From Trypanosoma brucei (Eukaryota): DNA of 64,000 nt. Under the pieces are notes generated by a model. It saw only the letters and a list, made by a program, of their open reading frames with translations, did no database searches and was not told the origin of the DNA. The first letter of the stretch is position 1. Each line of letters starts with the position of its first letter. Shown piece by piece: positions 1-64,000 of this stretch. The translations under genes and the position numbers were made by a program. The stretch spans positions 672,001 to 736,000 of the forward strand of contig CP000068.1 of assembly GCA_000002445.1 (NCBI GenBank). Direction: 5' to 3'.

Positions 1-1407
1 GCCCGTCACCGGACGATGATGTCCAGAACCCCCCCCTGCTACGACCGCAATTGTTGACTGTGGTTGGGCCTGCTGGATTGGAGAGGGTGGGAGTCCTAGC
101 GATTGCAGTAACTGTTTTGTGCTATGGGCTGGTATCGAGACTTCGGTACTTATCGGCTCCTCCTCGGAACTTTGTAGGAAGTTGCACGTTTCAGACGACC
201 AACTATCGTCGTTTGCTGATAAGTAGTTGTGTGATTCCCTCAACACCCTCAACCACAGAGGATGGTGAACAACTCGATCCACATCACTTTTCCGCCCCAC
301 AGCACCGCGTTCCCCTGGAACATCAATAAAGTCGATAAACCCCTTACCCTTAGCAGGTTTGTCCAGTGCGAGAAATTTCGTTTTCTGCTGGGTCGCCACC
401 GGGGAAGTGGTACCTGCAGTGGTGCATTTGCCGCTCGTGTTCTCATGTGGGACGGTAGCCTCAAATCGGCAGTGTAAATGGGCAGCTATCCAGTACCGCG
501 GTTTTATATCCTGCAGCAGCTTCACAGTGTGCGGATTGCCCAGGACACCGTGTCGTATATCTTCCCTGAAGTACGGCTTATATCGGAGTAATTGTTCTTC
601 ATCACCGTATTTTGTTACACCAGTAGGCCAGTCGTGGGAAACAAATATGTCAACAGGAGGGAGGGTAATATGGGAGTTGGTAGTGTCATTTCCCCCATCC
701 TGAGATACTTTCTGTGCCGGATTCGCGATGTTCGCAGCTGTAGCCAACGGTGATACTGACTGTGCACCCCATTTCCGGCCCCACTGCTGCATGTGCCGAA
801 GGGCACGCACAAAAGCCCTTAATTTTTCTACCTCAATGCGGCGCACGTGGTAGGCGGAGCGCTTTGAGGCCTCAGAGACATGAAACGGCCGGTTGGGATA
901 AGGCCGCACGTAGTCATGGGCCTTGAAAATCCCACTTATGCCTGCAACCGTAATGCAACCATCAACAACAACAACTCCTGAGTGACCTAAATAATAAATG
1001 TTGGGTGCGAGGAAGCCACCGTACGACTCTTCGGCGAGCCAATCGGAGCACTCGTGGTTTCCGCCAACGAACAATGTAAGGTACGGTGCCCGCTTTTCGC
1101 CCTGATAGTACTTTACAAAGTCGCCGAGAGAGCGATACTTCTCCGGCACAGCCATACACTTCAAGTCCTCCTCTCTGCGGAGGGCTTGGAAATCGCCAGC
1201 ACAGATGACAAAATCAATCTTTTTCCCCGATGAAACCTCGTGGTCGGAGCACGCTAGATATATTTTATCGAGTTCTCCGTGGCAACACCCCACCACGGCC
1301 ACGTGCAAATTAGCAAATGTCTCGGTTGCTCCACCACTGCTTGAGGGAGCCGTCCTCTCGGTTACGCCCCCCTTTACATTAAAAAAGTGATGCACCAGAC
1401 TCGACAT
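1..1407 (-). CDS. DBR1: Lariat debranching enzyme (metallophosphoesterase, DBR1 family), partial. The ORF runs off the window start and is not in the supplied ORF track.
   Basis: Hand translation of the minus strand from the ATG at 1407 gives MSSLVHHFFNVKGG...LHVAVVGCCHGELDKI...IDFVICAGDFQALRRE...LTLFVGGNHECSDWLAEESYGGFLAPNIYYLGHSGVVVVDG...SHDWPTG. It stays open to position 1. GCCHG (Cys replacing Asp), GDF and GGNHE motifs are the DBR1-type calcineurin-like phosphoesterase signature. Confidence 0.8.
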   Translation of the reverse strand, partial: MSSLVHHFFNVKGGVTERTAPSSSGGATETFANLHVAVVGCCHGELDKIYLACSDHEVSSGKKIDFVICAGDFQALRREEDLKCMAVPEKYRSLGDFVKYYQGEKRAPYLTLFVGGNHECSDWLAEESYGGFLAPNIYYLGHSGVVVVDGCITVAGISGIFKAHDYVRPYPNRPFHVSEASKRSAYHVRRIEVEKLRAFVRALRHMQQWGRKWGAQSVSPLATAANIANPAQKVSQDGGNDTTNSHITLPPVDIFVSHDWPTGVTKYGDEEQLLRYKPYFREDIRHGVLGNPHTVKLLQDIKPRYWIAAHLHCRFEATVPHENTSGKCTTAGTTSPVATQQKTKFLALDKPAKGKGFIDFIDVPGERGAVGRKSDVDRVVHHPLWLRVLRESHNYLSANDDSWSSETCNFLQSSEEEPISTEVSIPAHSTKQLLQSLGLPPSPIQQAQPQSTIAVVAGGGSGHHRPVTG

Positions 1408-21042: not shown

Positions 21043-21110
21043 CATGTAGTGCATGTAGTACTGGTTTGCATCCCGTGGAAACCTCTGCTTTTGTGTAGCA
21101 CCCGCGATTT

Positions 21111-29048: not shown

Positions 29049-29474
29049 AGGTGACGGGCATACGTTAGTGTGTGTTTTGTTTATACGGTGATGTAAAAAA
29101 TGACTTAAATTTTCATCTGTTTTTCGGTAATATTGTAGGTGCATATTCAACTCTTTGAATTTCTAATGGCGGTACTATTAGTATTATTTTTTTTAAATAC
29201 TTTCCTTGTTCACGAATATGTGATATCTACTGATTCGTATGAGCACTTTTGTTTTTTTATGCGTCTTCCTGTCTTCGCTAGCGTTTTGTTGTTGATGTAT
29301 TTCTTGATTTGCTTTTCGTTTCTTTCTTTATGCTCTATACCTTTTTTTGCCTTTCCCTTGTATCCGCATATTCTCGTCCTCTGGTCTCTACTCCGCCATA
29401 TTTATTCATGTAGTGCATGTAGTACTGGTTTGCATCCCGTGGAAACCTCTGCTTTTGTGTAGCACCCGCGATTT

Positions 29475-30905: not shown

Positions 30906-31153
30906 GCAGTATCCGCCTCTGCTTTTTTCTGTTCATCTTGTTTTATTGACTTTAGAGCCATATTTAGGCTCCGCTATGCGTCCTTGTTGGTTAGAGGTTT
31001 AGTATTGTTGTACCTGACTCTGTGACTGATGGTGGGTGCCGCACCGTATCTGCGGCATGGGGTGCTTGCGTGAGTGAGGATCCACACTTATTTGACCGCT
31101 GTTTGCTATGAAATGTTTCCCTCCTTTCCTACTTGTAGCCAAGTTAATATTGC

Positions 31154-44968: not shown

Positions 44969-44984
44969 GTGTGTGTGTGTGTGC
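44969..44984. repeat. (GT)8 microsatellite
   Basis: gtgtgtgtgtgtgtgc. Confidence 0.85.
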
Positions 44985-45125
44985 ACGCGTCGTCATCATC
45001 ATCAGTTCATCGGTACACATCATTACTGCAGGCACGTGCCCCGACTGGGTGGCGTCATTTCCGTTACACACGACAACTCGTTCCCACTGTAGACCAACGC
45101 TCACCTGCGAGAGTGCAGGAGAGAG

Positions 45126-47957
45126 ATGCAACGTGCCCAGATTCTCAAAGCGGGCGCAGTTTGCGCCGGTCGTCGAGAGAAATGCTCGGCAACCTCCTCC
45201 GCATCCTCGGGCTCTTCACCGAAAACAAACAGTTCAGGTACTTTACAGGTTTGTCGAGGGCGGCAACGGACTGTTAGTGAAGCACCATCCACCCCAGGAA
45301 GCGAGGGTATACGGTTCGGGGTTCAAGGATCCCTTCGAAGATTTTGGAATAGTCGTTCACAGTCAGGGAAGCCCATTGCTACCGATGCTTCCGTTGATGG
45401 GAAGTGCACAAGCATAACGACCGATGAGGTGAAAGTGCCGTCTTCCGTCTCCGTTTCCTCGCCTATCCACGTGTGTGACGATGTGGTTACCACGAAGGGT
45501 GACTGTGGGTTAGTGTGCACTGGGACTCAAACTAGCGTGGAGTTTTGTCGACATCTCAGTTTGCAGCAATGCGGTGTGGCCGTTGAGCACGGCGTTGATT
45601 CAAGTCTTCACAGCGAGGGATTGCTCCCAAAGCTGCGGTACGGCTCGAGGCGAATGGTTAAGCGACTGATGAGACGTCTTCGGTTGCCAAGTACCTGGGA
45701 GGCAACACTCATTCACTCACTTAACGAGGCCAGAGGGAATCCACACACTGTCGCTGCCGCATTAACCAAGCAGCTGGATAGCAGTTGCGGGAAGTTAGTG
45801 TTACTTCCGCCTATAACGGCTGTGGGTGGGGAGAATCTGGAGTGTTGTAGAACACAATATAACACACAACGTACTGATGAAGTACCTCGTGTGCAGGGTG
45901 GGGAAGGTGTTTCGGATGAAATCACGCATAGTCCCGTGCGGCGTATGGATGGTGCCCCGCCATTGACTGTCGGAGAGGTAAGTGGTGCGCAGCCCAACAA
46001 GCAGAGGGCTTTCCCCTTGCAAACCACGAATGCATCGGCAGAGGACTCAAATTTATCGGCATGTGTATCCGGGAATACACCCGAAGGTCCGGCGCGTCCG
46101 TCGTTCGGTGGTCTTGACCTGGACACCGGCGTGGGTGCCGTGGGCAGGAAGGGTTCCATTGTGGGAACACCGTCGGGATCTAGCGAGAATCAGCCAGGGG
46201 ACGCGAACAAAACCTCGACCCTAAGGACGAAAGGTGCCTCCACCGCCGCCTCCGGGGGATTGCCGTTGAGAGCACCACGGGTAGGGGAAGACTTTCAGTT
46301 ACAGGAGGTGTGTAAAGTAAACGCACCGTTTGCGGATGGTTCGTTGCGGACTGACTCCATTTTTCAGTTGCCGGGCCTGTCGTGCAGGGAAACACCATCA
46401 TGTGAGCAGAGTTTGCCAAAGGCGGGCCTGGAGTTGTCGTTGTCAACTGACAATAAGGAAGCGAGTCGTATGGAGGGCGTCGGCGGCGCATACTTCTCCG
46501 GGGGGAAGGGGGGCGCATGTCCTTCAGAGAAGTTCTGGACATCGAGTCGCTCAGTTGATGAAGCAAACCCGGTGGACCCATTTGCAACGGACGGGACATT
46601 AAACCGTGCTGTTCTTCAGAAGACTGCGTTTGCTACACCCTTAACTCCTCCATTGATCAGTGCAGCAGCTACCGAAGAAGGATGTGTGCCTCCGCCACCC
46701 ACGCTCAGCGTAGGAACCACCGAGGACAAAGGCATTCCCTCATTACCGCCACCACCACCGCCGCCACCACCGCCTGTTCGAGGGAAAGTACCGGAAAACC
46801 GCCGGTGTTGTAAAACGCGCAGTGTTCCCATAGATAAAACACAATACATCGCGGGGAGCTCGGCGTTTTGCGCGAGTGAGCCTGTTAACCTGCCTGGAGA
46901 TTTTTTTCAAATTCTCGCGGAGGAATTCAAGCTTGCCGAATCCTCCTCCACAAGGAAAGCGCCGGGTTTGGTAGCAGAGACCATTGTCAGTACAGATCGC
47001 GAGAAAAACGTTGGCGTGGTGCTGCGTGTTCTTCGGCTTCCTGTGAGTACCATCGAAGAGTGCGTACGCAGTTTCGACGATGATACGCTATCGGAGGAGT
47101 GTGTAGCTAGTTTGGCCAAAGTAATTCCCACAAAGGAAGAGAGGCGTTTGGTTGAATCGTGGATTAATCAAGACCCTGCTGTTGAGGCATGTAAGTTGCA
47201 TCGATTGAGTACGGTGTCCCAGTTTTTCGTTATGTGCGTCTCAGTTGACTTGTACGCTGAGCGTATAGAATGCTGGAACATGCGAAACGAATTTAATTGC
47301 CGCGTTGAGGATCTTGAACAGAAACTGAAGCGTGCTCATGACGGCATTCGGGCGGCCCTGGACACTAAACGTCTGCCAAGGGTTCTTCAGTATATTTTAG
47401 CGATCGGCAACTTTCTAAACGCTGGTAGCAGGTATGAAGATGCAAAAGGATTTTCGATCTCCCAGCTTGACCAGATAATACAGTTCCCGACTACGGACAG
47501 AAAGCGTACTTTACTGGAGCATGCTGTGATGGTCATTGAGCGATGCGAACCAGACTTGCACCGATTTACACAAGAGTTGCTACCGAAGGTGGAGTACGCA
47601 GGTGGCTTTGACACGGTCGGCGTCACCAGTGAAATTCAGTACCTTCGAGAACGATTGGAAAAATGCGTGACGCTGGTTCATACTATTGCAGAAGATAATC
47701 CCTGGACTTCAAAACTTGACCCTTTTTTACGTAGTGCCCTACCTGCAATGGAACGTATCGAGCAGCATCACAGTGACTTAGAGGCTGTTAGCGAAGAATT
47801 GGCGATCTTCTTTTGCGAGGACCCAAAGACGTTCCCCATGAACAAAGTCATGCGATGCCTCTCGAGTTTTGCGAAAAGGTACGATGGGAAGAGGGCCCTA
47901 TTGCAGGGGAGGAAAATGAACCCTTCTAAGAACCCCCGTCGTGCAATTAGAAGTTAA
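45126..47957 (+). CDS. Formin (FH1 poly-proline tract + FH2 domain)
   Basis: FH1: SLPPPPPPPPPPPVRG (about 46740..46790). FH2: LAKVIPTKEERRLVESW...RLPRVLQYILAIGNFLNAGSRYEDAKGFSISQLDQI (GN-x-L/M-N formin motif). The true start may be a downstream Met. Confidence 0.7.
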   Translation: MQRAQILKAGAVCAGRREKCSATSSASSGSSPKTNSSGTLQVCRGRQRTVSEAPSTPGSEGIRFGVQGSLRRFWNSRSQSGKPIATDASVDGKCTSITTDEVKVPSSVSVSSPIHVCDDVVTTKGDCGLVCTGTQTSVEFCRHLSLQQCGVAVEHGVDSSLHSEGLLPKLRYGSRRMVKRLMRRLRLPSTWEATLIHSLNEARGNPHTVAAALTKQLDSSCGKLVLLPPITAVGGENLECCRTQYNTQRTDEVPRVQGGEGVSDEITHSPVRRMDGAPPLTVGEVSGAQPNKQRAFPLQTTNASAEDSNLSACVSGNTPEGPARPSFGGLDLDTGVGAVGRKGSIVGTPSGSSENQPGDANKTSTLRTKGASTAASGGLPLRAPRVGEDFQLQEVCKVNAPFADGSLRTDSIFQLPGLSCRETPSCEQSLPKAGLELSLSTDNKEASRMEGVGGAYFSGGKGGACPSEKFWTSSRSVDEANPVDPFATDGTLNRAVLQKTAFATPLTPPLISAAATEEGCVPPPPTLSVGTTEDKGIPSLPPPPPPPPPPVRGKVPENRRCCKTRSVPIDKTQYIAGSSAFCASEPVNLPGDFFQILAEEFKLAESSSTRKAPGLVAETIVSTDREKNVGVVLRVLRLPVSTIEECVRSFDDDTLSEECVASLAKVIPTKEERRLVESWINQDPAVEACKLHRLSTVSQFFVMCVSVDLYAERIECWNMRNEFNCRVEDLEQKLKRAHDGIRAALDTKRLPRVLQYILAIGNFLNAGSRYEDAKGFSISQLDQIIQFPTTDRKRTLLEHAVMVIERCEPDLHRFTQELLPKVEYAGGFDTVGVTSEIQYLRERLEKCVTLVHTIAEDNPWTSKLDPFLRSALPAMERIEQHHSDLEAVSEELAIFFCEDPKTFPMNKVMRCLSSFAKRYDGKRALLQGRKMNPSKNPRRAIRS

Positions 47958-49237
47958 AATGGGTGTGGAGAAGTGAAGGTTGAATTGGCCCCATGCCGCC
48001 GCCCGGAGAGACGTGAGTAAATGCTCTCTGTCACTTGCAGCGGAAGCGGACCGTCGCATATGTTCAGCTAGCGGTCGCGGTTTAGTGATATGACGTTTAC
48101 CAGGGTACGCGGAGTGCAACGTGAGCATGAGCATTTTTCGTTTCCGTGTCGACAACTATGGTTTGTAGAGGTCCTCATCCACATACACCACTGTTTTTTT
48201 TAAATTCTATATGTCTTTGTGGATGTTGTGGAGATGCTTACGTAGCGAGATAATTCGCCGCGAGGAACAGGGATGGATCCCGCAAGGAGTACATCACTCT
48301 TGAAGTTTGACAACAGTGTTTCATATTTGCTGCTAAGTGTGTGTGTGCATGTGTGGTAGTTGGAAAAATATGCAATGAAGGGAGAGGCGAGTGCCCAGAT
48401 TTTCAAATCAACTAGAAAAAGAGATAAAAAGCAAGAAACAACGTGAAAAGTTAAAAGTGGTCTTGTTGTAAATCCAAAAGTGTTGCAACCTTCGTATTTA
48501 CGCCTAAAGTGCATTTGTATTTCTATATTTGTTTCAACAGCGCAGCACTTGCTGCTGTTTTTTTTATTACTCCCCACTGGGTTTGGGACCCTTAAAGTCA
48601 TTGTCCACGTGTTCGCCATTTATTTTCATTCACTTTTCGCTTTGGTTATTTTCGTTCATACAAATGCAATTATTAATGTTGTTACATTGAGTGTCACCCT
48701 AACAACTTTTTCCATTATACATTCTCTTGTTATTCCGTGCATAATTTTTTTTTTTTGCGTATGGTTCGTGTGTGTGTAACCGCGTTATTTATACCGTTCT
48801 GTTTAAAGATCTATTAGCTCAGATTTCCGGTGACCAGTTGGACTCTAGGTTGTGCTGAAGGGTTAAACTTGCTTGTTTCACGGAGAAAAGAGCCCTTCCA
48901 TCCAGTTCCAACGAACACCCCATTTTCACAGAAACTTGATTTTTCTTTCACTTCACCGTGTACGTCAGTCTTGTTTTCATTTTAACTTTACTGACTTGCT
49001 TTGTCATGCATAGTTTCCCTTTGAGTGTAGAGTGCGCGCTAGGAAGAGTGGAGGTGGTGAACATGATACCTGTGGTTTCGAAATGTTGTCCTGCCATCAT
49101 GTTATTGAGGTAATGTTACGCTGTTACCCCAATTGGTGTACATTTGCGATAACACTGACTCATTGTGAAACTGCTTCCCCTTGCTTTATTTTCTTGTTCT
49201 TGTTCATCCTTTTTTTTTCTACTAATTTTTCTCGATT

Positions 49238-51478
49238 TTGCGAGGCAGTGGTTGGGTCGCCTGCGGGAAATACCGTTTAAGGGCCCAGGAGAGAAGGCAG
49301 GTTGTCCTCGGTTTACCTCTGTGCTTCATAAATCAGCAACTCATGCGCGTGCGAACAAAGCGAGAAGGCGTTAGCAACAACTTTGGAAGCGCTTATGTCA
49401 ACTGTGAAATCATCAGTGCCTTCATCAAGCAAAAAAGGGAGGAAAACTCCTCCTCTGGACTTTGTCCGTCCGCGCACACCGCTGTAGAGTGGAGTATCCG
49501 AGCTGGTTCCCGAACAGCATTTTTGCTTCACGAGGTTCCCATATCCTGTGGACCGTCATCTCCCGTTGGTAAGGAGTGTGGTGCACCTGAAAACAATGAC
49601 AATTCCGTCGAGAATGGCGACACCGGGACATATAAGTTGGTAATAGGTGACGAAGTTGTGTCTGCCATAATGAGTGCAGACGATGAGTTGGATCGGTCCG
49701 ATGCTTTGCGTCTCCTTTCGCAAAAGCTTTGTGAAGTCTTTCGCATACCTGTGGGGATCACCACGGGCGACAACAGCCACGGTAATTGCCTGTGGAGTGA
49801 GGAGGGTTCGTGTTCAGTGTTGACACCACAAGAATTACGGGAGCTACCCTCACGCTGGATAATGCAGAGCCTAAACGAAGCCACCGTGGCGAGTTCACAC
49901 CGTAACGGCGTTACACTTCTTGATTGTGGCGCAACAGTGTGTTTGAAGTCAGAGGTTCTCAATGACGAGCCAAAACGCGAACTCAGTAGCGAGCCTGTGC
50001 GTAAAAGGAACTATAAACCTGGTAATGCGCCACAGTATCGGGTGTGTGACGTCGCTGACATGGCTAACGGGCAATATTGGGTTGAGGTGGAGCCGTTAAT
50101 AACTGGTCCAGAATCAACAGGATCTGTAGCCCGAAGGCGGTTTGATCGGGATGAGTTGCTGTTAAGTCCACCCCAACCCGTATACTTTGATCCACTTCTT
50201 CCAGTTGATGAGATAAATAATTCTCGTGGGACGTCGGCATGTCTTTTTCTTTCGGCAGTGTTAGCAGTTGGTCGGATACGTTCTGAACGTGCGGCAATCG
50301 GTGATCTGTCGATGTGGGACATGTATCCGAAAAATGTTACGTTGCAAATGGGTTACGCTTCGCGAGATATAAGGCGCAAAGTGCACGAACTGTGTGCGGC
50401 ACGTCGCGACGCTCTCCACGTGGAGGGTGGCACTGAAGGTACAGACGTGAAAAAAGAGGAGTTGGAGTTGCGGTTAGTTACTGACTACGTAACTTTGCGC
50501 TACAAGGGGAAAACAATTGAAGTCCTGCAACGAACGGTGGAACGTCTGTCGTTGCTATGGGACGCGCGGTTGGCAGTGAGAAGAGTGAGGGGGGCTAGGA
50601 GGGCACACGAATTATGGCTTGACGCTGTAGAAACACAGGCCGCATCAGATTTTTCTGAGAAGATACACGTTTTCAGCACCGTTGAGCCGTTCTTTATGCG
50701 CCTGTTTACTTTGTTGCTGCGGTATAGTTCACTGTTCGGTGATTTAGGTTATAATCAAGGGCCGCATGCCGCTGTTCCACCGGCAATCATGCAACAGTTG
50801 TGTCAGGTATTTGATATTCAGTGTGAGGCATTTGCAAGCCCACTCAATGCTCAGTTGCCGCTATTTTGCTCCCTGTTCCCCGACACTGATTACTTTTTTG
50901 GGTCACTGGGTTCCTTTTTCGACATCGCGCTGACAGCAGGACATTTTGAGGTAAATCCACCTTTTGTAACTGCGGTGTTACAGCGGCTGGAAAAATTACT
51001 GCTGAAAGACACCCTACCTATTAACGACAGTGATGGTGCTGCATCTATGTTATTTGTTGTAGTGCTTCCGTCCCACGACCTAGATGAAACTGAGAGGAGT
51101 GATGGCCTGGAAGGGGGAGCGCCGGTTGCAGGGAACACCACTCTGAGGCAGAATAATAACTGCGATAGGAAGAGGGGCCGCTTTGAAAACGATGGGAGAG
51201 ATAAAGGTGGCGGAAATGCTGTAAGCACCGACCGGGCACTACGGGAGAGTCCGTACTGTCTTGCTCACGTTCTTTGTTCTGCCCATGAGTCCGTGTACGT
51301 TGACGGACATCAGCACATGCTTCGTGCACCCCTTTTTTGTATTGGGTCTCCAACACGACTTATTGTGCTGGGAAATCGAACGGCCCGCCTTCGTTACAGC
51401 GACGCCGCAACGCGGTTACAATCTGTGCGAGAGGCATGGCGGGGCTACACCTTGGAGAACAGAGTTGATAGCCCGTAG
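49238..51478 (+). CDS. Candidate PCIF1/CAPAM-like N6-adenosine methyltransferase (NPPF motif). N-terminal extent uncertain.
   Basis: NPPF tetrapeptide at 50954..50965 within ...CEAFASPLNAQLPLFCSLFPDTDYFFGSLGSFFDIALTAGHFEVNPPFVTAVLQRLEKLL. The FASPLN / FPDTD / (F)E(A/V)NPPF / EKLL arrangement matches my recollection of the PCIF1 catalytic region. No WW domain seen. Confidence 0.5.
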   Translation: MRGSGWVACGKYRLRAQERRQVVLGLPLCFINQQLMRVRTKREGVSNNFGSAYVNCEIISAFIKQKREENSSSGLCPSAHTAVEWSIRAGSRTAFLLHEVPISCGPSSPVGKECGAPENNDNSVENGDTGTYKLVIGDEVVSAIMSADDELDRSDALRLLSQKLCEVFRIPVGITTGDNSHGNCLWSEEGSCSVLTPQELRELPSRWIMQSLNEATVASSHRNGVTLLDCGATVCLKSEVLNDEPKRELSSEPVRKRNYKPGNAPQYRVCDVADMANGQYWVEVEPLITGPESTGSVARRRFDRDELLLSPPQPVYFDPLLPVDEINNSRGTSACLFLSAVLAVGRIRSERAAIGDLSMWDMYPKNVTLQMGYASRDIRRKVHELCAARRDALHVEGGTEGTDVKKEELELRLVTDYVTLRYKGKTIEVLQRTVERLSLLWDARLAVRRVRGARRAHELWLDAVETQAASDFSEKIHVFSTVEPFFMRLFTLLLRYSSLFGDLGYNQGPHAAVPPAIMQQLCQVFDIQCEAFASPLNAQLPLFCSLFPDTDYFFGSLGSFFDIALTAGHFEVNPPFVTAVLQRLEKLLLKDTLPINDSDGAASMLFVVVLPSHDLDETERSDGLEGGAPVAGNTTLRQNNNCDRKRGRFENDGRDKGGGNAVSTDRALRESPYCLAHVLCSAHESVYVDGHQHMLRAPLFCIGSPTRLIVLGNRTARLRYSDAATRLQSVREAWRGYTLENRVDSP

Positions 51479-52865
51479 TCTGCCCGTGCATACGTTTATT
51501 TGGAAAACATTTTTGCTTTTCCCTCCCAGACTGCTAGGCGAGTTTTCTTTCTTCTAGCGTTATTTCAAGTGCACTACCGACGCTCTGGTGCCAGGCTTCT
51601 CACTTATTCCAGTAGAAGCTCCACTTCTGTCCAACATCGCGGGTGGAGCCCCTGCTTTATCTAATTTTTTTTCTCCTCCCCTTTTCGCATGTTTGTTTTT
51701 GTGGCTCTCGGAGCCCCTCCTCCCGACTACTTTTTCATTGAGTTGATGCACCTGCGGGGATTTGTGTGCTGTCGGTGCAGGATGGTTGGTGAAAGTTATA
51801 ACCACAACTCGCTGATTTCAAGTGCTCCTCATCCCCACGTTAAAAAAAATATTTATACTGTGTTTTTTTTTTGAGCGCAGAGGCACATTTGGAATGAAAT
51901 CATCCATCAATGTTGGCCAACCCGTCCTTAAAACGCTTCGAACCCCCTCTGCAGTTCATACCCAGTTTAAGAGGTGCCAGCGACTCTGGAAATTTTATAA
52001 AGGGGTGGTGATGTGGCGGCGAGCAGTTTAATATATTTATTTCTTCTTTGGCTGCTTTACGTTGAGCTTGTCTCGTGAGGCGTAGCGACACACTTACGGG
52101 GGGAAGGGGGAGGGGGACAGATTAAACCGGTTAATATTTCCTTCCGCTCTACCAACATCTCGGGGGGGGGGGAGGTTGTGATGCATGTGCATGTGCTTGT
52201 GTGTGTGGAAATACTCCAGTTATGCAGCATGAGATGCATATAGAAGTAGGAGAATCCCTTTATTCCTGACGTTTGTACAGATCCACGCCTGCGTACAATC
52301 AATGGAGCCTGAGCCTCTCTTTAACCTCGAGGTGCCATATGTCCCGTTGTTGGTTTAATTTTATATGAGGCATGAAGAAGGTGCTTGTATGCATGGAAGT
52401 TCTTGCTGCTGTGGGCTGTTCGACGTAGGGGACACACACACAAAAAAAAGTAGCGACAACGAAAATATTAACCGAAACGGTGGCTAGTTGTGCTTAGTCC
52501 CTTGTTTTTTTTCTGTGATTTCTGTTGCAAACTACATCCTTTTACTCCTTCATTATCTTGCACCGTCAAAATGTCGAGGTTGGCAATTTTTGATCCTAGT
52601 ACTGCACCGCAACAGGCGGGGAAGGAGGTGTCATCGAAATAAAGAGGGAACGACACCAGGGCAATTCACAAAACAAGCGGTGGCAAAAATATTTATCCCT
52701 TAACATCTTAGCGGCATTTGAACTTTGGCAGTTGATATTGGGAGTAAGAGTTTAAAAGAAGGTAAGACCAAACCTCGATCCCACAATCTCTTTTACCTTG
52801 TAGTGTCAGCTGCTTATACTCGGCACTTCTCATCACCTACGGCATTCGTTCGAGGAAACTCGTAG

Positions 52866-55076
52866 ATGTTGTGCGCGTTGGATGACACTTGGGCAGATTG
52901 TCTTGATGAGTTTAAATTGGCCCTTTCCTCCACGGGAAATACGTGGAAATGTGAATCATTAGCGGGTGTCGATAAGGAGGCGATGCTCAGCGCTCCAGAG
53001 GTGATGGATGCCAAGACGGACCCAGGATGCGGATATGCTCAAATCCGCTCGCTCAACGACCTCCTCGCGAAAGGGGACATTCCTTCGGCTGCAACACTGC
53101 AGGGACAGGAATTACTGGACGTCATGGACCTCATTCTTGCTAAGGAACTACAATATCTTCAGGGATTTTCCCTTACTTCGGGTTGTCTTGCCTTCCCGTA
53201 TTTTTTCAAGATGGATTTACTAAAGGAGCAGAATCCTGTGTTGCATGCGTATTGCCGAGGTGTTGTGAGGACCGTAGAGATTGTGCTGCGTGCGGTCATG
53301 ACGACTGGGATCCGCAGCGATGAGGAGTTTGTGCCATGGATAAGGGAGATGGAAAGCGAGGAAAACGTGCCCGATGAGCAGATTCTTTGTCAACTTGAGG
53401 AGGCTGCATGCAAGGCAGACTCACCTGCCGTTGCGACGCGGTTGCGTTGGCGCATGGACTTTCTTTCTGCGCTCCGGTTGTTTGTTGTTGTTGAGGGAAA
53501 AGCGGCTGTTGAGGAGGCATGCGGTATATGCAGCGCGGCGCAGGAGCTGTTGAATTCAGATGACTATGCGCGTACTTTTGAGCCCGTGCAGGATGGCCGT
53601 TTTTTCCGCGAGACTGAGGTTGCGTATTGGGCGAGTGGTTTCACTCCAACAAAACCAATGCCCGTTGCTCCCTTTTGTGAGGTGGTGCAGTCGTACACGA
53701 CAACGCTGCAGCAGTTGGCTTCACTCAAAGATTTGTTCAGTTTACCGTCTATTCAAGCCATCTTGGAATATATCGAGTCTATCGGGGCGCAGAAGCCGCT
53801 GCTTCCAGTGCGAGCAATTGCAGTAATCGCACTATTTCGCAGTAATCCAAGTGAGTCTTTTCTTTATGGTCCTTCCTTGAGCCATCGCGTTCTTGAAGAC
53901 TTGTCAACAAGTTACGGCGCCCCCCTTTATCTTGGAATAATGGAGGGAAAGGAGGAATTACTCGAGGGTGTGGTGAAGTATCGCCTTCACAAGGGAATGG
54001 ACCACCGCAAAGTAACACCTCAACAAACCGAGTTCCTCCGCCAGCACACCGTAGATGCTGTACGTAGTTGGGCAAGAGAAATGGAAAAGGTATATCTTAT
54101 TCATATGGAGTGTATGCTCTGCAACCGGGGTCTTGCCCACCGCCGGCTTATGAATGTGCTGCCCCAACTAGGGGGACTGCAGGAAATGTCGTACAGCACT
54201 GACATTAACATTTTTCTTTCTCAGACCCCGGGGTTGGCTGCGGACTTGCAGAACGAAGCTATCAAGCGAACATCAATACTTACAATGTACGCTAACCAAC
54301 ATGTTTTGCATGTGATGGAGCTTATTTTCTCCCTTACGGTTGAACTTGATCTCTTTACGCAGGGAGAGCTTGTACCCGCACTTTGGTATATGAATTTTAT
54401 ACAGCGGCTGCAGGTGGAGAACCTCTTAAATTTATCTCCGCCATATGGCGCTTTAATTCCTGAAACCCGTATAAACCGGGTAACGAAGGTACCACTGTAT
54501 AATCTGGCCCTAAGCACTCGTACCTCAGGGAATGTGGACACACTTCGTGTTGCCATTTTGGAGACGGGTCGGCAGATTACTGATGCTCTTTTCCGTGCCG
54601 CATGCGTGATGGAGGCCAAGGGGCTTATCGACTTCAAAACTCAGGGAAAGTACTCACTTACTACGGTGGAGAGAGTGTTTAACAACCGCATGAAATGCTT
54701 GGGCCACATCCGCAGCCCAACCTTTGTGCCATACGGCTACTGTGTGTCTGCCAAACCTAACTTTTCCTCAACTAATGACGGGGATCCACCGAAAATTTCA
54801 CATTACGCTCACGAAGCAGGCGTGCAGGCGCTTAATGCGGCAGAGCGATTGAAACATCTGCTAGCGATGAAGGGCCTCGATGGGGCGCGCGGGAGAGCTT
54901 TGTACGAACACATCAAGGCAATGGAAAAGACAGCGCGGGCGATAAATGCGTCTTTGGCATCATTTGTTGGTGTGTGTGACGATGAGGAGGCATTGAAGGG
55001 GTATGCCGTGGAGGTTTGTCGACCCTTCCATTCCTGTATGATATGCCTCACCTTAAGGAAGAGGACAACCGCTTGA
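52866..55076 (+). CDS. Conserved hypothetical protein, possibly Mak10/NAA35-like (NatC auxiliary subunit)
   Basis: 736 aa, close to the size of human NAA35. The N-terminal stretch EAMLSAPEVMDAKTDPGCGYAQI resembles the recalled NAA35 N-terminus (EAMSAIEMMDPKMDAGM). Otherwise unassigned. Confidence 0.5.
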   Translation: MLCALDDTWADCLDEFKLALSSTGNTWKCESLAGVDKEAMLSAPEVMDAKTDPGCGYAQIRSLNDLLAKGDIPSAATLQGQELLDVMDLILAKELQYLQGFSLTSGCLAFPYFFKMDLLKEQNPVLHAYCRGVVRTVEIVLRAVMTTGIRSDEEFVPWIREMESEENVPDEQILCQLEEAACKADSPAVATRLRWRMDFLSALRLFVVVEGKAAVEEACGICSAAQELLNSDDYARTFEPVQDGRFFRETEVAYWASGFTPTKPMPVAPFCEVVQSYTTTLQQLASLKDLFSLPSIQAILEYIESIGAQKPLLPVRAIAVIALFRSNPSESFLYGPSLSHRVLEDLSTSYGAPLYLGIMEGKEELLEGVVKYRLHKGMDHRKVTPQQTEFLRQHTVDAVRSWAREMEKVYLIHMECMLCNRGLAHRRLMNVLPQLGGLQEMSYSTDINIFLSQTPGLAADLQNEAIKRTSILTMYANQHVLHVMELIFSLTVELDLFTQGELVPALWYMNFIQRLQVENLLNLSPPYGALIPETRINRVTKVPLYNLALSTRTSGNVDTLRVAILETGRQITDALFRAACVMEAKGLIDFKTQGKYSLTTVERVFNNRMKCLGHIRSPTFVPYGYCVSAKPNFSSTNDGDPPKISHYAHEAGVQALNAAERLKHLLAMKGLDGARGRALYEHIKAMEKTARAINASLASFVGVCDDEEALKGYAVEVCRPFHSCMICLTLRKRTTA

Positions 55077-57093: not shown

Positions 57094-57845
57094 AAGAAAT
57101 AATAATAAAAAAGCAGAAGCCTTTGTTGTTTTTGACACGTAGAGTATTTTCCATTTTTTTTACTTAATATTCTGCTATTCCTGTGCTATTTTTGTTTTTT
57201 TTGTCATTCCGCACTCAGTGCGTTTAACCAGCTTCTCCATTGTTCAGTAACTTCACTGGTTTTAAAGTATATAGTTATATAGAAAAGTGAAACGGTTCGC
57301 GCGACTATGAAAGGATCGTATAATATTTTCTGTTTCTCTCCATTGTTTTTTGTTTTTTTCTGCAGTCTGTGATTTCTTAAGTGCGCCCCTCTCCATTTCC
57401 CTTTATTTTGTTTTTAATGTTTGCTCGTCTTTCCTTTTCTATTTTTTCTCTTGTCTTTTTGGTGTTTTTCCCTCCGGGATCAGTTCCCCGACTACTCACG
57501 GTGAATAGGTGGAGCGAGTCGAAGGAAAGAGAAGGGGGAATACAAACGAAAAGCAACTTCAAACCAAACGGAAGGACAACAACAACAGAAAACAAATCAA
57601 AAGTTCAACATCCAGCACGTCGCTGTCGTTACCTCCTCAGCGGTGCACGAGAGTGAAGGTGGAAAGGTGGCGGTGGCGGTGGGACAAAACAAAAAGGAAA
57701 GGAAAGAAAAGTGAAACAAAAAGTGAATAATAATCGATAGTTTACTCCCCTCCGGGGAGAAAAAGGAGGGAAACAAAACAAAAACAAAAAACAAAAGTGA
57801 AAAGGAAAGGAAAAGGGAGAAGGGAAAACAAGAGAAAAAAGGTAG

Positions 57846-60800
57846 ATGGCTGCTCGGTTGGAGGCAATTGCAGCAGAATACTTTCTGCCTGCAAAACCTG
57901 AGAACCGTACGAGGGAAGGAGACAGCGTTAGCAGCAAGGGTGGTAAGATAACACACACCTCTGCTGAAGCAGCGGCAGGAAATAGCGGTCAATACCCACC
58001 AACTTCTTCACAGGAATCCGAAACGGATAAGAAGCGCGGTGGTGTTAGCGAAGATGACTGTGGAAAGTCTTCAACACCTTTAGCATTGCTTGACAGCGCA
58101 CATATTCTTCCCCCTCTCATGCTCTATTTTGAATGCCTACCAACGGAATGGGAAACAACGCCTGCTGTATCCGCAAATCAACCAGCGGTTCCAGGTTTAG
58201 TGCGGACATCGGCGTCAGGTGGCGTGCCAACAGGGTGTGAAGTTGCGTGGCAACGCCCAAGGCAATTCGGATCGGATCCTAGTGATAAATCTTTTTGTGC
58301 AAAGTGGTATGGAAAGCGTAGGAGGCAGGGCACTCAGAAAGAAATGGGAGCCGCGGTCTCATGTGAAGATAGGTATAGGGGAAGGCAGCGAGTACAATCG
58401 GACAATGGCCTCTGGAGGTGGTGTGATGACATGGATGTGTTTGCAAACTTTGCACAGCCCCCGTTGAGTGTTGTTTGCGCTTCGTATGAGATGCTGGACG
58501 AAAGGCACCAACGTGGTCTTAACGCGGTCACCACACTAGTAGAAAAGTGCAACGACTCTTTTCATCGCGAGCAGTGGGTCACGGCGACCTCGTTGTCCAT
58601 GCAGCGCCCACCATTTGGGTTCGGAAGCACTGAGGCAGGCACTTCTACTAATGCTGGTTCCATGCCTGCTTGTGCCTCAACCCCGACACCGACTCTTACA
58701 GACTATCGTAGTTCCATTGTAAACTCTCTTAACAGTTTTTTGCGTAGCTTGAGCAAGCGCGGTGACCAAGTTCTCGTGTTGCATATAATTATACGAGTGG
58801 CCACGTGGCGGTTTTGTAGTAGGAACGAGAGGGTTACTCTTTTATTTAATCACATCCACGCATGTTTGCCGACTGTTCACCCATCAACGGCAACTCTAGC
58901 AATGGAAGCGTGGGCGCAACTTCACGCGATAGGGGCAAGCTCCACGGTATACTTGAAAATTGCGACCGAGATGTTGCGACTGGCATGCACTTTTATAAGT
59001 GATGTGAGTGTGCCTGCGGGCCAAGTTAGTGGGTTTATTATGATCCACCACATAGCGCAGTGGCCTTACTTGCTATATCGTACTTTACTGCGTGACGAAA
59101 GAGATCGGCTCTTGCTCGTGATATGGAAATCATTGATGAGCACTCACCAGCCACACGTGCGCGAGTTGGCGGCAGTGGCGCTGCGAAGCTTGTTTATTCT
59201 GGATATCGTACGGGGAAGTTATTCTTGTATGCGCGAGTTGTTGGACCGAGCTGCTTTACTTGTACTATCACCCGGTGACCACCAAAAGGCACCTTTATCT
59301 TCTCCACGTACTGCACCAGTCACCAAAGGTGCCGCCCATAAGTCACAGCGTGCAACACCGTTAGGCACTTCGTTAAAACAGTTGGAAGCACCCCTTTTAG
59401 TGGGCGAAACCGCTTGTACTCCGAGGGCTGTTGTTGGCACTGAATCTGTCGGTACTGGACAATGTTGTCGAGAGGGCACCTCATGTACAATTACACTCCC
59501 GAGTATCCCTTTTTTTGGGTGCACGATAGCCCGTCAATATTGTTTGAACTGGAATTCATCATCTGGTGACGGTGGTGCGACTTTAGTTGCCACGGAAAGC
59601 GGTAGTAGTGGAGGGGACTTGCTGAGGCCGGCTGCAGAAGAGGCTGTTGTTGTCGCGAAGGGTGAACTGGGGAATGTAGAGGGGCGTTGTTTTGTACCGC
59701 GGTTATCCCCTCCTGCTAATGACGAACCATTTTTGTGCGGGTATATTAAACAAGTTGATCCGGCCAATAAGCGCTTTAAGAACCGGTTGGCAACGATCGC
59801 CCCGTCTCACAACGCGGATACCAACTTGCATGCTAGCACCCTCGTGATTGGAGCGTTCGTGAGTGCCCTGCGTTCCTGTGCTGCCTTCCTTGAAATTCCT
59901 CCCTTAGTTGGTGCAGAAGATACACAACCTGGTGTGGCCACAGGTCTACGAGGTGCTAACGGAGGCGAAACCGTGTCTGTCAGTGAAGCACAGGGAGGTC
60001 CTCCGTGTTCGTCTGAGAGTAGCGAGGAAACCGATTCATGCAGGAGATCAACCAGTCTTGCCGGTAGCAGCCCTTTGTATGACACTGCTGGCGGTGCCAA
60101 AACCACTTTGTCGATTGCAGCCGTGATGGAGCACCTTGACGAAACTTCACTAGGGCGGTCACCACCAAAAGGGGGAAAATATCACGCGGCGCCAAATACT
60201 GGGGATCGGCGATCGCTCGGTTATCCTTCTCGGAGTCAGGAGGGGCAGGGCTCTGCACCAGCGGTCCCTGATGATACCAGAAAGGTCAAAGAATTGGTGT
60301 TGTGGAGGTTATTCCCAGTGCAACCACTTCTCCAATGCTTAGCGCGTGAACGACAGGATAAATCAAGCTCTTTATGGCATGTCGAGCGACTGGTTGCTGT
60401 TTTGGCACTTTATGGTCTTCATACTCTGAAGGAGGGTGAAATTCGTGGAGCTTTAGACATGCTTTTAAGAAGGGCTAAGGTGGCGCATAGGAAGGCTGCG
60501 GCTGGTAAACAGCAGCAGGAGGCGTGTGTTCTACACGTAGCCCTTCCTGCATCTGCCGCTTTTGGTAACTCCACAGTTGGTGGTGGAGTCGGCAGTATTG
60601 CTGGAGACACAGTTGGGACCAGTGAGAAAGACATGTACACACTGTCTCTCGTCAACTTGTCTCTTTTTCTTTCAGCTATTGCAGTGAAGTATCCGCAACT
60701 GTTTGAGGTTACGTTTGTAAGCCATATTTACCCGATGCTTTTCTACGCTCTTCAGCAGGCAACACCAGCTTACTGTCCCGCCGCCAGTGCAGTTCTCGCT

Positions 60801-63800
60801 TTACTGGTACACAACTTTCCCGTATCAAGTCGTGACCGGTTGCAACCCATCGTAGAGCGACTCACTGGTATCGCTACTTCAATGCCTTTCAGCACACATA
60901 CACTGGGGGCTACCGCAAAAATTTGTGGTGTTTACAGAGAAATGCGGCTTCATTGCTGCCTCGCTTTGTTGCAGCGTATTGCTGAAGTATTGAACGATAA
61001 TGGGCCGGTGATCGTGCGGGGCGCCAGGGACACGGCGGTAAGCGATATGGAGAGGGAGTCCGTCTGCACCGATTTCCCCCTGAAGAGCGCATCCGACACC
61101 AGGAGGAAGATTGTTTGCTTTCGTGTGCTTCACACTGTATGCATGGAGTGGGAGGGCACCGCTCTATTTTTCCTTGAGGTGTGTGCTCCATATTTACATC
61201 ATCAGAACACCGTCCTCAGGCGTGCGTGCGTGCAATCATGTGTACGTCTGCTACTGTCGGATTGTTTCCTTTCAAGAGCCGAGAGAGTGGGCGGTTCACC
61301 ACTGAGTGATGCGCTGGATGGTGAAGTGGAGCAGATGGCAGCGTGCGCCGTGAAGTGCCTGTGGGATGGAGACTTGAAAATCGGGTCTCTCTGCGCTCCG
61401 TGCAATCCGACACTATACAGGAGCGAGAGAAACGGGATTATCACCTCCGAGACCCGAGCGTACCCCTTCCTTGCACATGCGTTTGATAACGTTAATTTGT
61501 GCGACGTAGGGAACGTCCGTCGTGGTTTCGGTGACGATGGCGACACCAACAGCGAAGATGAAAACAACCTTAATCTTGACCGAGCGCTAGAGTGCTCACC
61601 GCTTGAGTCGTCAAACCATGACGCAACCTTCACGTGCGAGCGCCACACAGGGCGGTCCCATAACAATATTTTGCGCGAAGTGTTGCATCGCCTCGTTGTG
61701 GTTGCGTTGTGCGACCCCGATGAAACCATACGTCACTCGGCACTCAATAGTCTTACCAAGGAGACGGATCAGTTTCTTTACACCCACAAGGAGATAGTTG
61801 ACCTAATTTTCTCAGCCCTCAACGATGAGTACCCACCTAATCGATTGCAGGCAGTAAGGATACTACGACGACTTGGACACTACATTCCGATGGTTGTGTA
61901 CCCACGGCTGCGAAAAGTATTTTCGCTAGTGATCCAAGATTTCCACAGCACAATGACCAGCTCGGTGAAAAAATCAAAGGTTGTTCAAAAAGGGGATGAG
62001 TGGGCGGGAGCTCGCGGTAACTGTGAGCTTTCTTATGGTAGTAGTCAGAGCCATAGAGTCAACGCAGATACCCCTACGAACGCATTTACCTCTAACAGCA
62101 CCAGTAATGTCGTGAAGTATAGTGCCGATGAGATGATGCTTCTTTTCGAACTTGTGCAGTCGGTACCAAACTTCATTCCAATTTACATCGATACTATGCT
62201 ACAACTCTTGCAGCAAGTGCTTGTACCCCACGATATGCTGGAACGCGGAACTGTCATTACCGCTCTTCACATTGTTTCTTTCCTCATGGACGAAACCACT
62301 CGGGTGGAATGGCCAAAATTTGAGGTATTACTTAGGCCACTTTCGCAGCAGTTACTGCTGCGTGACAATGACACCAATAGGCTACACGTGGCTATTGGCA
62401 CTTTGCAGAAGCTCATACAATATGTTGTCATTGGAAATCCTTTCGATCAAAGGGATGATTTGAAACTTACTGTTGAGAGCCTTTACTCACTTCTCTACCG
62501 TAGGCCACCTATTGACACTGAGCTTTCCCTCTCGGTGGTTAAGCTCCTGGGGACAATTAGTGCCATTTGCACTGACCGTAAGTTTGACGACCCACAGAGT
62601 ACCCCTCTTCTTACCCTTGCTACACTCAGCGGAAGTCGTGGAAATTTTGGAACCTTCGCTAGCACGTACCAGCTATCCATTCGACCAACTCCGGGCTACG
62701 CGATGTTTCTCAGGGCGGCTCGACCAGAAGCTCCTTTTTATGGTAATGAGGCAAAAAGTGGGCGCAGTTCGCAACTCACCGATTATTTGTGGCCTGATGT
62801 TATGTTGCGTGTGTTGCTCCGAACCCTTTCCGATGCACTTGACGATATTATTGCCTTTACTGACGAGGAACTACAAGCCTGCCTGCAGGCAGCAGTGGCG
62901 GTCCTGCGCAGCTCCGACGCACCTTCAAAGTTGCAACTGTACCTTCCTCCACTATTGAGTGTTCTTGCAGGCTTGCTGGAACGCACAGATGAGGATGCTC
63001 CCCTCCGTGTATATGTCACAGAAAGTATCGTTGAACTAGTAAAGCCGGCCGGACGAACTATTGCTCCGATGTTTGAGCTTCTTGTTGTCTTCCTGAGTGA
63101 GCACCTAATGTCTTCAATTTACACACTTCCAAGTTGTTGCAAGCTTCTGATCGGCCTTTGCGAGGCATCTCCAGATTTGGTTCAAGAGCACTGTGAATGG
63201 TTTGTTTTGCTACTGTTGGGAAAGCTAATGCACCACGTTGAAATGGCGACATCAGCTACAGCCTCCGCGACTATGCAGAGACAGAGACGTAATCAAAAAC
63301 AAGGAGCCCCGCAGCAGATTCCTAATGACTTCGATCCATCACCACAAGACACTATAGCAAGGTCTTATGTACCGGGTTCAGTTATAGGTGTTGTCCTCCA
63401 AGCCGTTCTGGCATTGCTTCCCATTGCCGATGGGTCGACGGTTCATTACGCATGCCTCATGTTTTCACAAATATTGAGGCGTGCGGGCGGCATATCGGAG
63501 CCGCTCATGGTGGGTGAGGAGACTGTAGAGGGTCACACATCGAACGTTACCGTTCCTACGGGACTTAGTGTTGAAGTTATAAGGGGCATTGTGCAAGCCT
63601 TGGTGGACCTTCTTGAAAATTTTGACCTGACAGCAATTTCTATGTTCGTGGTCGAGACGGCACTGCTGCTACTTCGAATCTACGCAAAAGCCGCCCATGG
63701 AGTGACCAACCAGCCTTCTACCAGATGCTCAGAAGAAGAATCGACACGGAGAAACATCTTGTTGGTACCCGCTGGTAACACTCCTAAGATACAGGAGACA

Positions 63801-63944
63801 CCTAAAATAACTTTGGGGAGCTTGCCTTACGGGCACCAAGAACCACCTAAAACATGGTTTAGTCAATCTCCGTTGTCTCGCTTGGTAGTGGAGGAAATTG
63901 TGAACAAGAACACAAGCATCACTTACCGTTTTCCCTTCGATGAA
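57846..63944 (+). CDS. Large (2032-aa) alpha-helical / HEAT-ARM-like repeat protein. Not present in the supplied ORF track.
   Basis: Codon-by-codon hand translation is stop-free from the ATG at 57846 (preceded by an in-frame TAG) to the TGA at 63942. The N-terminal ~600 aa are Ser/Pro/Gly-rich. The C-terminal ~1400 aa are Leu-rich with helical-repeat character (...LALLVHNFPVSSRDRLQPIVERLTGIA..., ...LQAVRILRRLGHYIPMVVYPRLRKVFSLVIQDF..., ...LPPLLSVLAGLLERTDEDAPLRVYVTESIVELVK...). Confidence 0.65.
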
Positions 63945-64000
63945 GTGACCACCTCGTGGGAGGCACAAGTGGAAATGGATCTCCTCGCATGCGTGTTCCT

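What the first reader, a model, noticed from the sequence alone, without database searches (positions are those of the whole stretch)
57846..63944. 2032-aa helical-repeat protein missing from the provided ORF track
I translated this frame by hand line by line from 57846 to the TGA at 63942 without encountering a stop. All plus-strand ORFs the track lists in this interval lie in a different frame. It is therefore the largest gene in the last 6 kb and would be overlooked if the track were trusted. The DBR1 frame at 1..1407 is also missing from the track, plausibly because it runs off the edge. The composition (low-complexity N-terminal third, Leu-rich helical-repeat C-terminal two thirds) is typical of large HEAT/ARM scaffold proteins such as nucleolar, cohesin-loader, proteasome-activator or PIKK-partner types. 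I cannot assign a family.
Basis: seen in the sequence. Interest (0 to 1): 0.6.

Follow-up and report, generated by a model that had tools for sequence, protein, structure and literature searches.

The report
Truncated giant TOR-like pseudokinase gene

Summary
The frame starting at ATG 57846 is open, coding-like and absent from the ORF list. The claimed stop is a misreading. TGA lies at 63941-63943, one base out of frame, and the frame stays open to base 64000.

The 2051 in-window residues are 100% identical to residues 1-2051 of T. b. brucei TREU927 XP_844907.1 (4417 aa, "hypothetical protein, conserved", chromosome 5). So the gene is already annotated.

Orthologues of 3.7-7.6 thousand residues occur in Trypanosoma, Leishmania and Leptomonas, and a 2446-residue relative occurs in Bodo.

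Ortholog profiles of the N-terminal, FAT-like and kinase regions each hit TOR first or exclusively among solved structures (2.4e-18, 0.005, 4.4e-6). A profile-profile alignment to true TORs is collinear from the HEAT repeats to the FATC tail (E 8.8e-36).

The catalytic Asp, Asn and DFG-Asp are not conserved, so it is most likely a pseudokinase scaffold.

The papers I read list only six T. brucei PIKKs and omit this gene.

As stated, the finding is an ordinary edge artefact. The gene itself is a moderately interesting, unstudied TOR-derived variant.

The parts
57846..64000 (+). Open reading frame, 5' part only: codons 1-2051 of a 4417-codon gene. It is cut by the window end.
   Evidence: No in-frame stop. 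2051 of 2051 residues are identical to P0074 = T. b. brucei TREU927 XP_844907.1, 4417 aa.
57843..57845 (+). In-frame TAG directly upstream of the start ATG (57846-57848).
   Evidence: The public protein starts with the same MAARLEAIAAEYF.
63941..63943 (+). It is out of frame by one base.
   Evidence: the in-frame codons are GAT 63939-41 and GAA 63942-44.
57326..57475 (+). Pyrimidine-rich tract in the intergenic region, followed by an A/G-rich stretch up to the ATG. This is the kind of tract that precedes trans-splice acceptor sites in trypanosomes (inference only).
   Evidence: Sequence read. The function is inferred from general knowledge of trypanosome mRNA processing and was not tested.
57846..58730 (+). 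Residues 1-295: poorly conserved N-terminal extension rich in small and polar residues, probably largely disordered.
   Evidence: Composition. Low identity to distant orthologues.
58731..59345 (+). Residues 296-500: first conserved helical block. It aligns weakly with TOR N-terminal HEAT repeats (about TOR 111-234).
   Evidence: Conserved in all orthologues. hhalign Tb 329-458 to TOR 111-234, low probability of 14.8%.
59346..60665 (+). Residues 501-940: lineage-variable insertion rich in Ser, Gly, Ala, Pro and Thr.
   Evidence: Its length differs greatly between orthologues.
60666..61325 (+). Residues 941-1160: conserved HEAT block, collinear with TOR at about 374-630.
   Evidence: hhalign alignment starts at Tb 956 = TOR 374. 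Profile A2 positions 67-193 match TOR 487-629.
61632..61970 (+). Residues 1263-1375: the TOR-signature HEAT segment (VLHRLVVVALCDPDETIRHSAL...NDEYPPNRLQAVRILRRLGHYIPMVVYPRLRK), equivalent to human mTOR 613-750.
   Evidence: phmmer against PDB hits TOR2/mTOR at 1.5e-6 to 4e-6. Profile A2 gives 2.4e-18. It is the shared match of all TOR hits.
62124..63245 (+). Residues 1427-1800: further conserved HEAT repeats, collinear with TOR at about 750-1075.
   Evidence: Helices in the AlphaFold2 model.
63846..63998 (+). Residues 2001-2051: conserved block (...WF.SPLSRL...FPFD.V.TSWE...MDLL) that continues beyond the window.
   Evidence: 40% identity to distant orthologues. Invariant F, P, W and E columns in alignment A2.

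Best explanation
Window 57846-64000 (+) is the 5' 46% of a single intron-less Trypanosoma brucei chromosome-5 gene. The public record is XP_844907.1, 4417 aa, 'hypothetical protein, conserved'.

The protein is a giant, kinetoplastid-conserved member of the PI3K-related kinase (PIKK) family that derives from, or is most closely related to, TOR. The part in the window is the N-terminal HEAT-repeat solenoid, interrupted by long, variable, probably disordered insertions. Beyond the window lie a FAT-like helical region, a degenerate PI3K/PI4K kinase fold and a conserved FATC tail.

The three residues that do the chemistry in PIKKs are not conserved in the family: the catalytic-loop Asp and Asn, and the DFG Asp. 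The structural motifs (FRLT, FATC tryptophans) are invariant. So the protein most likely does not phosphorylate anything. It most likely works as a very large non-catalytic scaffold, as TRRAP/Tra1 does, using a TOR-type solenoid for protein-protein contacts.

Shown: the gene's identity, its truncation by the window, the TOR-specific homology, and the loss of catalytic residues in the alignment.
Inferred: pseudokinase status and the scaffold role. Partners and pathway are unknown.
For: Identity:
- 2051 of 2051 residues are identical to TREU927 XP_844907.1.
- The gene order Brr2, formin, PCIF1_WW protein, Mak10, then this gene fits T. brucei chromosome 5. Brr2 is Tb927.5.2290 and formin is Tb927.5.2300.

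Family breadth:
- Orthologues occur in T. congolense, T. vivax, T. rangeli, T. cruzi (fragment), Leishmania tarentolae (7000 aa) and Leptomonas seymouri (7575 aa). A 2446-residue relative occurs in Bodo saltans.

TOR relationship:
- The in-window profile A2 hits only TOR in the PDB (2.4e-18, 1.1e-16, about 1.5e-13). The next hit is at 0.23.
- The FAT-region profile A3 hits only TOR2, at 0.0052.
- The kinase/FATC profile A1 hits TOR at 4.4e-6, ATR at 0.04 and Tel1/ATM at 0.08-0.3.
- hhalign of the family against 8 bona fide TORs gives probability 99.9 and E 8.8e-36. Tb 956-2810 aligns with TOR 374-1559, and the kinase and FATC pieces follow in order.
- The C-terminal half is collinear with TOR from FAT to FATC, E 2.6e-6.
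- Non-family hits are named TOR/FRAP by their sources and carry mTOR_dom, FAT, FRB, PI3K and FATC domains.

Kinase fold:
- Pfam PI3_PI4_kinase scores 29.2 bits against a cut-off of 27.1, on a partial match.

Loss of catalysis:
- mTOR GDRHPSN...HIDFG corresponds to TDRESTT...THCLG in T. brucei, TNRESTT...THVLG in T. congolense, TQRECTT...THHLG in T. vivax and HTRECGT...VHALG in Leishmania.
- No orthologue keeps all three residues, while FRLT and W..WAP[HQ]W are invariant.
Against: - The C-terminal 2366 residues are not in the window, so everything about the kinase fold rests on the public protein, not on the sequence given.
- Pfam does not find FAT, FRB, mTOR_dom or FATC in the T. brucei protein.
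- The kinase-domain match is short (about 60 residues) and barely above the Pfam cut-off.
- The N-lobe and ATP-binding lysine could only be aligned by eye. hhalign confidence there is near zero.
- T. brucei itself keeps the catalytic-loop Asp.
- HEAT repeats inflate profile scores, though the specificity for TOR argues against a repeat artefact.
- The only structure model is a low-confidence single-sequence one, pLDDT 50.6.
- No expression, localisation or interaction data were seen.
Confidence: 0.8

Rival explanations
1. One reading: a complete, stand-alone 2032-aa HEAT/ARM scaffold protein that ends at a TGA at 63942.
For: The ORF and its start are real. The in-window part is indeed a helical solenoid.
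Against: The TGA is out of frame and the frame stays open to base 64000. The identical public protein continues for 2366 more residues and ends in a kinase-like domain and FATC.
Confidence: 0.01
2. It is a fifth, catalytically active TOR-type kinase whose active site is merely divergent.
For: TOR is the closest relative in every region. T. brucei keeps the catalytic-loop Asp-Arg (TDRE), and the PI3_PI4_kinase model is matched above its cut-off.
Against: The Asn and the DFG Asp are replaced in T. brucei. None of the three catalytic positions is conserved across orthologues, whereas neighbouring structural residues are invariant. No FRB domain was detected.
Confidence: 0.1
3. It is the long-missing kinetoplastid orthologue of TRRAP/Tra1, so diverged that only generic PIKK features remain, and it serves histone-acetyltransferase complexes.
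For: It is a PIKK-fold protein without conserved catalytic residues, of about 4000 residues or more, like TRRAP. TRRAP is described as the only PIKK pseudokinase (abstract of PMC8926402, listed). The T. brucei PIKK lists in the papers read contain no TRRAP.
Against: No TRRAP/Tra1 chain appears in any of five PDB searches at E up to 1-10, although such structures exist. TOR is the only or the best hit. No Tra1-specific Pfam domain was found. The conserved N-HEAT segment is a TOR signature.
Confidence: 0.08
4. It is a chance open frame or a non-coding region.
For: None beyond its absence from the ORF list.
Against: The chance of 2051 stop-free codons is about 1e-43. Codon bias favours this frame throughout. 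Conserved orthologues exist across kinetoplastids.
Confidence: 0

Closest known systems
TOR / mTOR (FRAP) kinases, PIKK family
   Same: Overall order is the same: N-HEAT, M-HEAT, FAT, kinase, FATC, in a collinear alignment. The TOR-specific HEAT signature equivalent to mTOR 613-750 is present. The closest kinase C-lobe is TOR's, including the PFRLT-type motif and the FATC tail ending in W.
   Different: It is 1.8 to 3 times longer because of large variable insertions. The catalytic Asp, Asn and DFG-Asp are not conserved. Pfam detects no FRB, mTOR_dom, FAT or FATC. It is not among the four TOR paralogues (TOR1-4) listed for T. brucei.
TRRAP / Tra1 (PIKK pseudokinase scaffold of SAGA and NuA4/TIP60)
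   Same: It is a very large PIKK-fold protein with a degenerate active site, so a non-catalytic scaffold role is the natural functional analogy.
   Different: No detectable sequence relationship beyond the generic PIKK fold. TRRAP/Tra1 never appears among the PDB hits, and no Tra1 Pfam domains were found. The likely ancestry is TOR, not Tra1.
T. brucei TOR4 (TOR-like 2) and TOR3 (TOR-like 1), the divergent kinetoplastid TOR paralogues
   Same: They are kinetoplastid-specific elaborations of the TOR family.
   Different: Those are on chromosomes 1 and 4 (Tb927.1.1930, Tb927.4.800) and are treated as kinases in the literature. This gene is on chromosome 5, next to Brr2, formin and Mak10, and is not in those lists.

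Membership tests
PIKK family | Long N-terminal alpha-solenoid of HEAT repeats | tested here: met
   Weak Pfam HEAT/HEAT_2 hits at 1284-1345. The all-helical AlphaFold2 model has about 30 helices. Foldseek hits are mTOR, importins and CAND1.
PIKK family | PI3K/PI4K-type kinase fold near the C-terminus | tested here: met
   Seen in the full-length public protein, not in the window. PF00454 scores 29.2 bits against a cut-off of 27.1 at residues 3921-3983, a partial match. Profile A1 hits TOR, ATR and ATM catalytic loops. hhalign aligns Tb 3927-4065 with TOR 2201-2299.
PIKK family | FAT domain preceding the kinase domain | tested here: inconclusive
   Pfam FAT is not found in T. brucei. Sub-threshold hits occur in relatives P0012 (E 9.7e-4) and P0008 (E 0.27). 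hhalign is collinear with TOR FAT at E 2.6e-6 but with low per-column confidence.
PIKK family | FATC tail at the extreme C-terminus | tested here: inconclusive
   Pfam FATC is not reported. All full-length orthologues end in ...LI..A.....L.G....PH.W..WAP[HQ]W at the very C-terminus. hhalign pairs Tb 4373-4417 with TOR FATC at low probability.
PIKK family (active kinases) | Catalytic loop DRHxxN and DFG motif | tested here: not met
   T. brucei has TDRESTT...THCLG. The three positions vary freely among orthologues.
TOR subfamily | TOR-specific N-HEAT/M-HEAT sequence, collinear with TOR | tested here: met
   Profile A2 hits only TOR chains, at 2.4e-18 to 4e-13. hhalign gives E 8.8e-36 over 1151 columns.
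TOR subfamily | FRB (FKBP12-rapamycin binding) domain between FAT and kinase | tested here: not met
   PF08771 is not detected in P0001, P0002, P0008 or P0010. hhalign confidence in that stretch is about 0. A highly diverged FRB cannot be excluded.
TOR subfamily | mTOR_dom (PF11865) in the HEAT region | tested here: not met
   It is not reported by Pfam for the window protein or for P0001. Bona fide TOR hits have it.
TOR subfamily | Assembly with LST8 and Raptor- or Rictor-type partners | not testable with these tools
   This needs affinity purification and mass spectrometry.
TRRAP/Tra1 | Sequence similarity to Tra1/TRRAP (Tra1-specific regions) | tested here: not met
   No TRRAP/Tra1 chain appears in the PDB searches. 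No Tra1 Pfam family was found.
TRRAP/Tra1 | PIKK fold without catalytic residues | tested here: met
   This is the respect in which it 'works like' TRRAP.
TRRAP/Tra1 | Subunit of SAGA or NuA4-type acetyltransferase complexes | not testable with these tools
   One T. brucei chromatin paper mentions TRRAP only in its reference list.

The most novel reading that the evidence does not exclude
Kinetoplastids carry a seventh, so far unlisted PIKK: a giant (4.4 to 7.6 thousand residue) TOR-derived pseudokinase, conserved from Bodo to Leishmania and Trypanosoma. It would be a second, independently evolved PIKK pseudokinase besides TRRAP. It could act as a scaffold or decoy that organises or titrates TOR-complex partners or other signalling proteins in parasites that already have four TOR paralogues.
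Probability: 0.5. Interest if true: 0.6.

Novelty: new variant of a known kind. Interest (0 to 1): 0.4.

Why it matters
For the scan, it shows that a mechanical ORF list drops genes cut by the window edge. It also shows that a hand-read stop codon can be one base out of frame.

Biologically, TOR signalling controls growth, quiescence and differentiation in trypanosomes and Leishmania and is a drug-target area. The papers read count six PIKKs in T. brucei, and TRRAP is described as the only PIKK pseudokinase (abstract listed).

A conserved TOR-like pseudokinase that is among the largest proteins of these parasites would add an unstudied component to that family. It would also give a second example of a PIKK turned into a non-enzymatic scaffold. 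The gene itself is already in the databases, so the novelty lies in its classification and function, not in its existence.

Tried and rejected
- The search for homologous proteins was run twice, with the whole 2051 aa and with residues 1236-2051. Both runs returned nothing, although the identical protein is in the same collection. I therefore relied on the representative-library search.
The single-sequence model of residues 1266-2051 has pLDDT 50.6. Its Foldseek result, with mTOR on top at TM about 0.25, is only weak support.
- Single-sequence phmmer of the C-terminal 1117 residues against the PDB was nearly blank, with TOR2 at E 0.76. It needed the ortholog profile.
- Pfam finds no Tra1, FRB, FATC or mTOR_dom domains.
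- Literature searches for Tb927.5.23xx, LmjF.17.09xx, 'TOR5', 'TOR-like pseudokinase' and 'seven PIKK' found nothing about this gene.
- Supplement look-ups in two papers did not identify it. Its TriTrypDB identifier is probably about Tb927.5.2330, counting from Brr2 = 2290 and formin = 2300, but this was not verified.
- Short ORFs on other frames and strands inside the interval (175, 161 and 131 aa) have no Pfam match and are treated as spurious.
- I considered and rejected chance ORF, stand-alone HEAT scaffold and TRRAP orthologue (see rivals).

Full report
**1. The observation**

Translating 57846-63944 gives 2033 codons with no stop. Extending to 63998 keeps the frame open. A script found no in-frame stop from 57846 to the window end. 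The nearest upstream in-frame stop is TAG at 57843, directly before the ATG.

The bases at 63939-63947 are GAT GAA GTG. The ORF is therefore real but has no end in the window.

The ORF listing states that ORFs running off an end are not listed, which is why the ORF is missing. The six plus-strand ORFs listed inside it all sit in frame +1 relative to it.

The other five frames hold 54-139 stops. Codon usage trained on neighbouring genes prefers this frame in every 600-base window. By chance, 2051 stop-free codons would occur with probability about 1e-43.

**2. What the gene is**

A search of 1.84 billion representative proteins with residues 852-2051 found a 4418-aa protein at 99% identity (P0001, T. 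b. gambiense) and a series of very long relatives.

Cluster look-up gave the names. XP_844907.1 / Q582D2 of T. b. brucei TREU927 has 4417 aa, is annotated 'hypothetical protein, conserved', and lies on a 1,608,198-bp record. UniRef labels it 'PI3K/PI4K catalytic domain-containing protein'.

The window's 2051 residues are identical, without a gap, to residues 1-2051 of the TREU927 and T. equiperdum proteins.

The neighbours fit T. brucei chromosome 5:
- a three-copy tandem META+DUF1935 array
- Brr2 (37340-44068)
- formin (45126-47957)
- a PCIF1_WW protein (49238-51478)
- Mak10/NAA35 (52866-55076)

Brr2 is Tb927.5.2290 and formin is Tb927.5.2300 in the literature.

So the finding is the first 46% of an already annotated gene.

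**3. Family and anatomy**

Orthologues:
- T. congolense, 4416 aa
- T. vivax, 4553 aa
- T. rangeli and T. cruzi, fragments
- Leishmania tarentolae, 7000 aa
- Leptomonas seymouri, 7575 aa
- Bodo saltans, 2446 aa; the match stops in the HEAT region and the protein lacks the FATC ending, so the model may be incomplete
- several unnamed assemblies

Conserved blocks in T. brucei numbering are about 296-500, 941-1160, 1263-1375, 1427-1800 and 2001-2100, all within or straddling the window. Beyond it they are 2313-2820, 2870-3400, 3650-3700, 3900-4120 and 4380-4417. The stretches between them are variable in length and sequence and rich in small and polar residues.

One unnamed relative (P0012) has the same blocks without the insertions, at TOR-like coordinates.

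**4. Relationship to TOR**

- The single sequence already hits only TOR2/mTOR in the PDB, aligning residues 1236-1375 with mTOR 613-750 (E 1.5e-6 to 4e-6).
- A profile of eight orthologues for the in-window region 940-2051 hits only TOR chains (2.4e-18, 1.1e-16, about 1.5e-13). The next hit is at 0.23, and the sub-alignments are collinear.
- The profile of the FAT-like region hits only TOR2, at 0.0052.
- The profile of the kinase/FATC region hits TOR (4.4e-6), then ATR (0.04), then Tel1/ATM (0.08-0.3). It never hits TRRAP, DNA-PKcs or SMG1.
- A local profile-profile alignment of the family against eight bona fide TORs gives probability 99.9% and E 8.8e-36. Tb 956-2810 aligns with TOR 374-1559. 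The kinase piece (3927-4065 with 2201-2299), an N-HEAT piece and the FATC piece follow in the right order.
- The C-terminal half alone is collinear with TOR from FAT to FATC, E 2.6e-6.
- The bona fide TORs carry mTOR_dom, FAT, FRB, PI3K and FATC domains and are named TOR/FRAP by their sources.

**5. Catalytic site**

Pfam finds a short PI3_PI4_kinase match just above its cut-off (29.2 bits against 27.1, residues 3921-3983).

In the confidently aligned catalytic region, mTOR's GDRHPSN...HIDFG corresponds to:
- TDRESTT...THCLG in T. brucei
- TNRESTT...THVLG in T. congolense
- TQRECTT...THHLG in T. vivax
- HTRECGT...VHALG in Leishmania

The catalytic Asp, the Asn and the DFG Asp each vary freely, and no orthologue keeps all three. 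The flanking ELAEWS..EYLLD, the FRLT after the activation loop and the terminal W..WAP[HQ]W are conserved or invariant. That pattern is what a pseudokinase looks like.

By eye, the N-lobe (LLLSDG...F, AMExxIxxLL, PLVLPLGL..FI) can also be matched to TOR, without a conserved lysine. hhalign gives no confidence there, so this part is only an inference.

**6. Structure**

A single-sequence AlphaFold2 model of residues 1266-2051 is of low confidence (pLDDT 50.6) but is entirely helical, with about 30 helices. Foldseek puts mTOR first (7.8e-7), followed by importins, CAND1 and SF3B1 at low TM-scores. This supports 'HEAT solenoid' and little more.

**7. Mechanism**

The most likely reading is a non-catalytic, TOR-shaped scaffold. 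It would keep the PIKK architecture for folding and for protein-protein contacts, with lineage-specific disordered insertions.

This is an inference from the conservation pattern. Partners, localisation and phenotype are unknown. TRRAP/Tra1 is the functional analogy, but it is not supported as the ancestor.

**8. Literature**

Papers from 2005 to 2026 list six T. brucei PIKKs: ATM, ATR and TOR1-4, on chromosomes 2, 11, 10, 4, 4 and 1. None lists this chromosome-5 gene. Searches by gene-identifier prefix and by descriptive terms found nothing about it.

**9. Verdict**

As written, the finding is mostly an artefact of the ORF track plus a misread stop codon, and the gene is already annotated. 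What lies behind it is a little-noticed, conserved, giant TOR-like pseudokinase, a new variant within a known family. It deserves moderate interest.

Noticed in passing
window 1-1407, minus strand: This is the lariat debranching enzyme DBR1 (Metallophos plus the DBR1 C-terminal domain). Its ATG is near 1407 and it reads leftwards off the window edge.
   Followed up: yes
window 21111-32494, plus strand: There are three tandem copies of a 4182-base unit. Each holds a 476-aa ORF with no Pfam match and a 446-aa META + DUF1935 protein.
   Followed up: partly
window about 15400-21100: This looks like a divergent strand-switch region. All long ORFs to the left are on the minus strand and all to the right are on the plus strand. 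GC skew changes sign at about 13-16 kb.
   Followed up: no
window 37340-55076, plus strand: The gene order is Brr2/SNRNP200 helicase (2242 aa), formin (943 aa), a PCIF1_WW-domain protein (746 aa) and Mak10/NAA35 (736 aa). This matches T. brucei chromosome 5 around Tb927.5.2290-2300.
   Followed up: partly
window 57326-57845: The intergenic region upstream of the ATG is strongly strand-asymmetric. A pyrimidine-rich tract (57326-57475) is followed by a long A/G-rich stretch (about 57500-57845). It was not analysed further.
   Followed up: no
proteins P0006 and P0007 (Leptomonas seymouri, Leishmania tarentolae): The orthologues in Leishmaniinae are 7000-7575 residues, about 60-70% longer than in Trypanosoma. 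The difference comes entirely from expanded variable insertions between the same conserved blocks.
   Followed up: partly
protein P0012 (ENA metagenome contig, 2254 aa): This is a compact relative with the family's conserved blocks at TOR-like coordinates and no large insertions. The gene model stops at the kinase N-lobe. Its organism is unknown. It may show what the family looked like before the insertions, or extend the family beyond kinetoplastids.
   Followed up: partly
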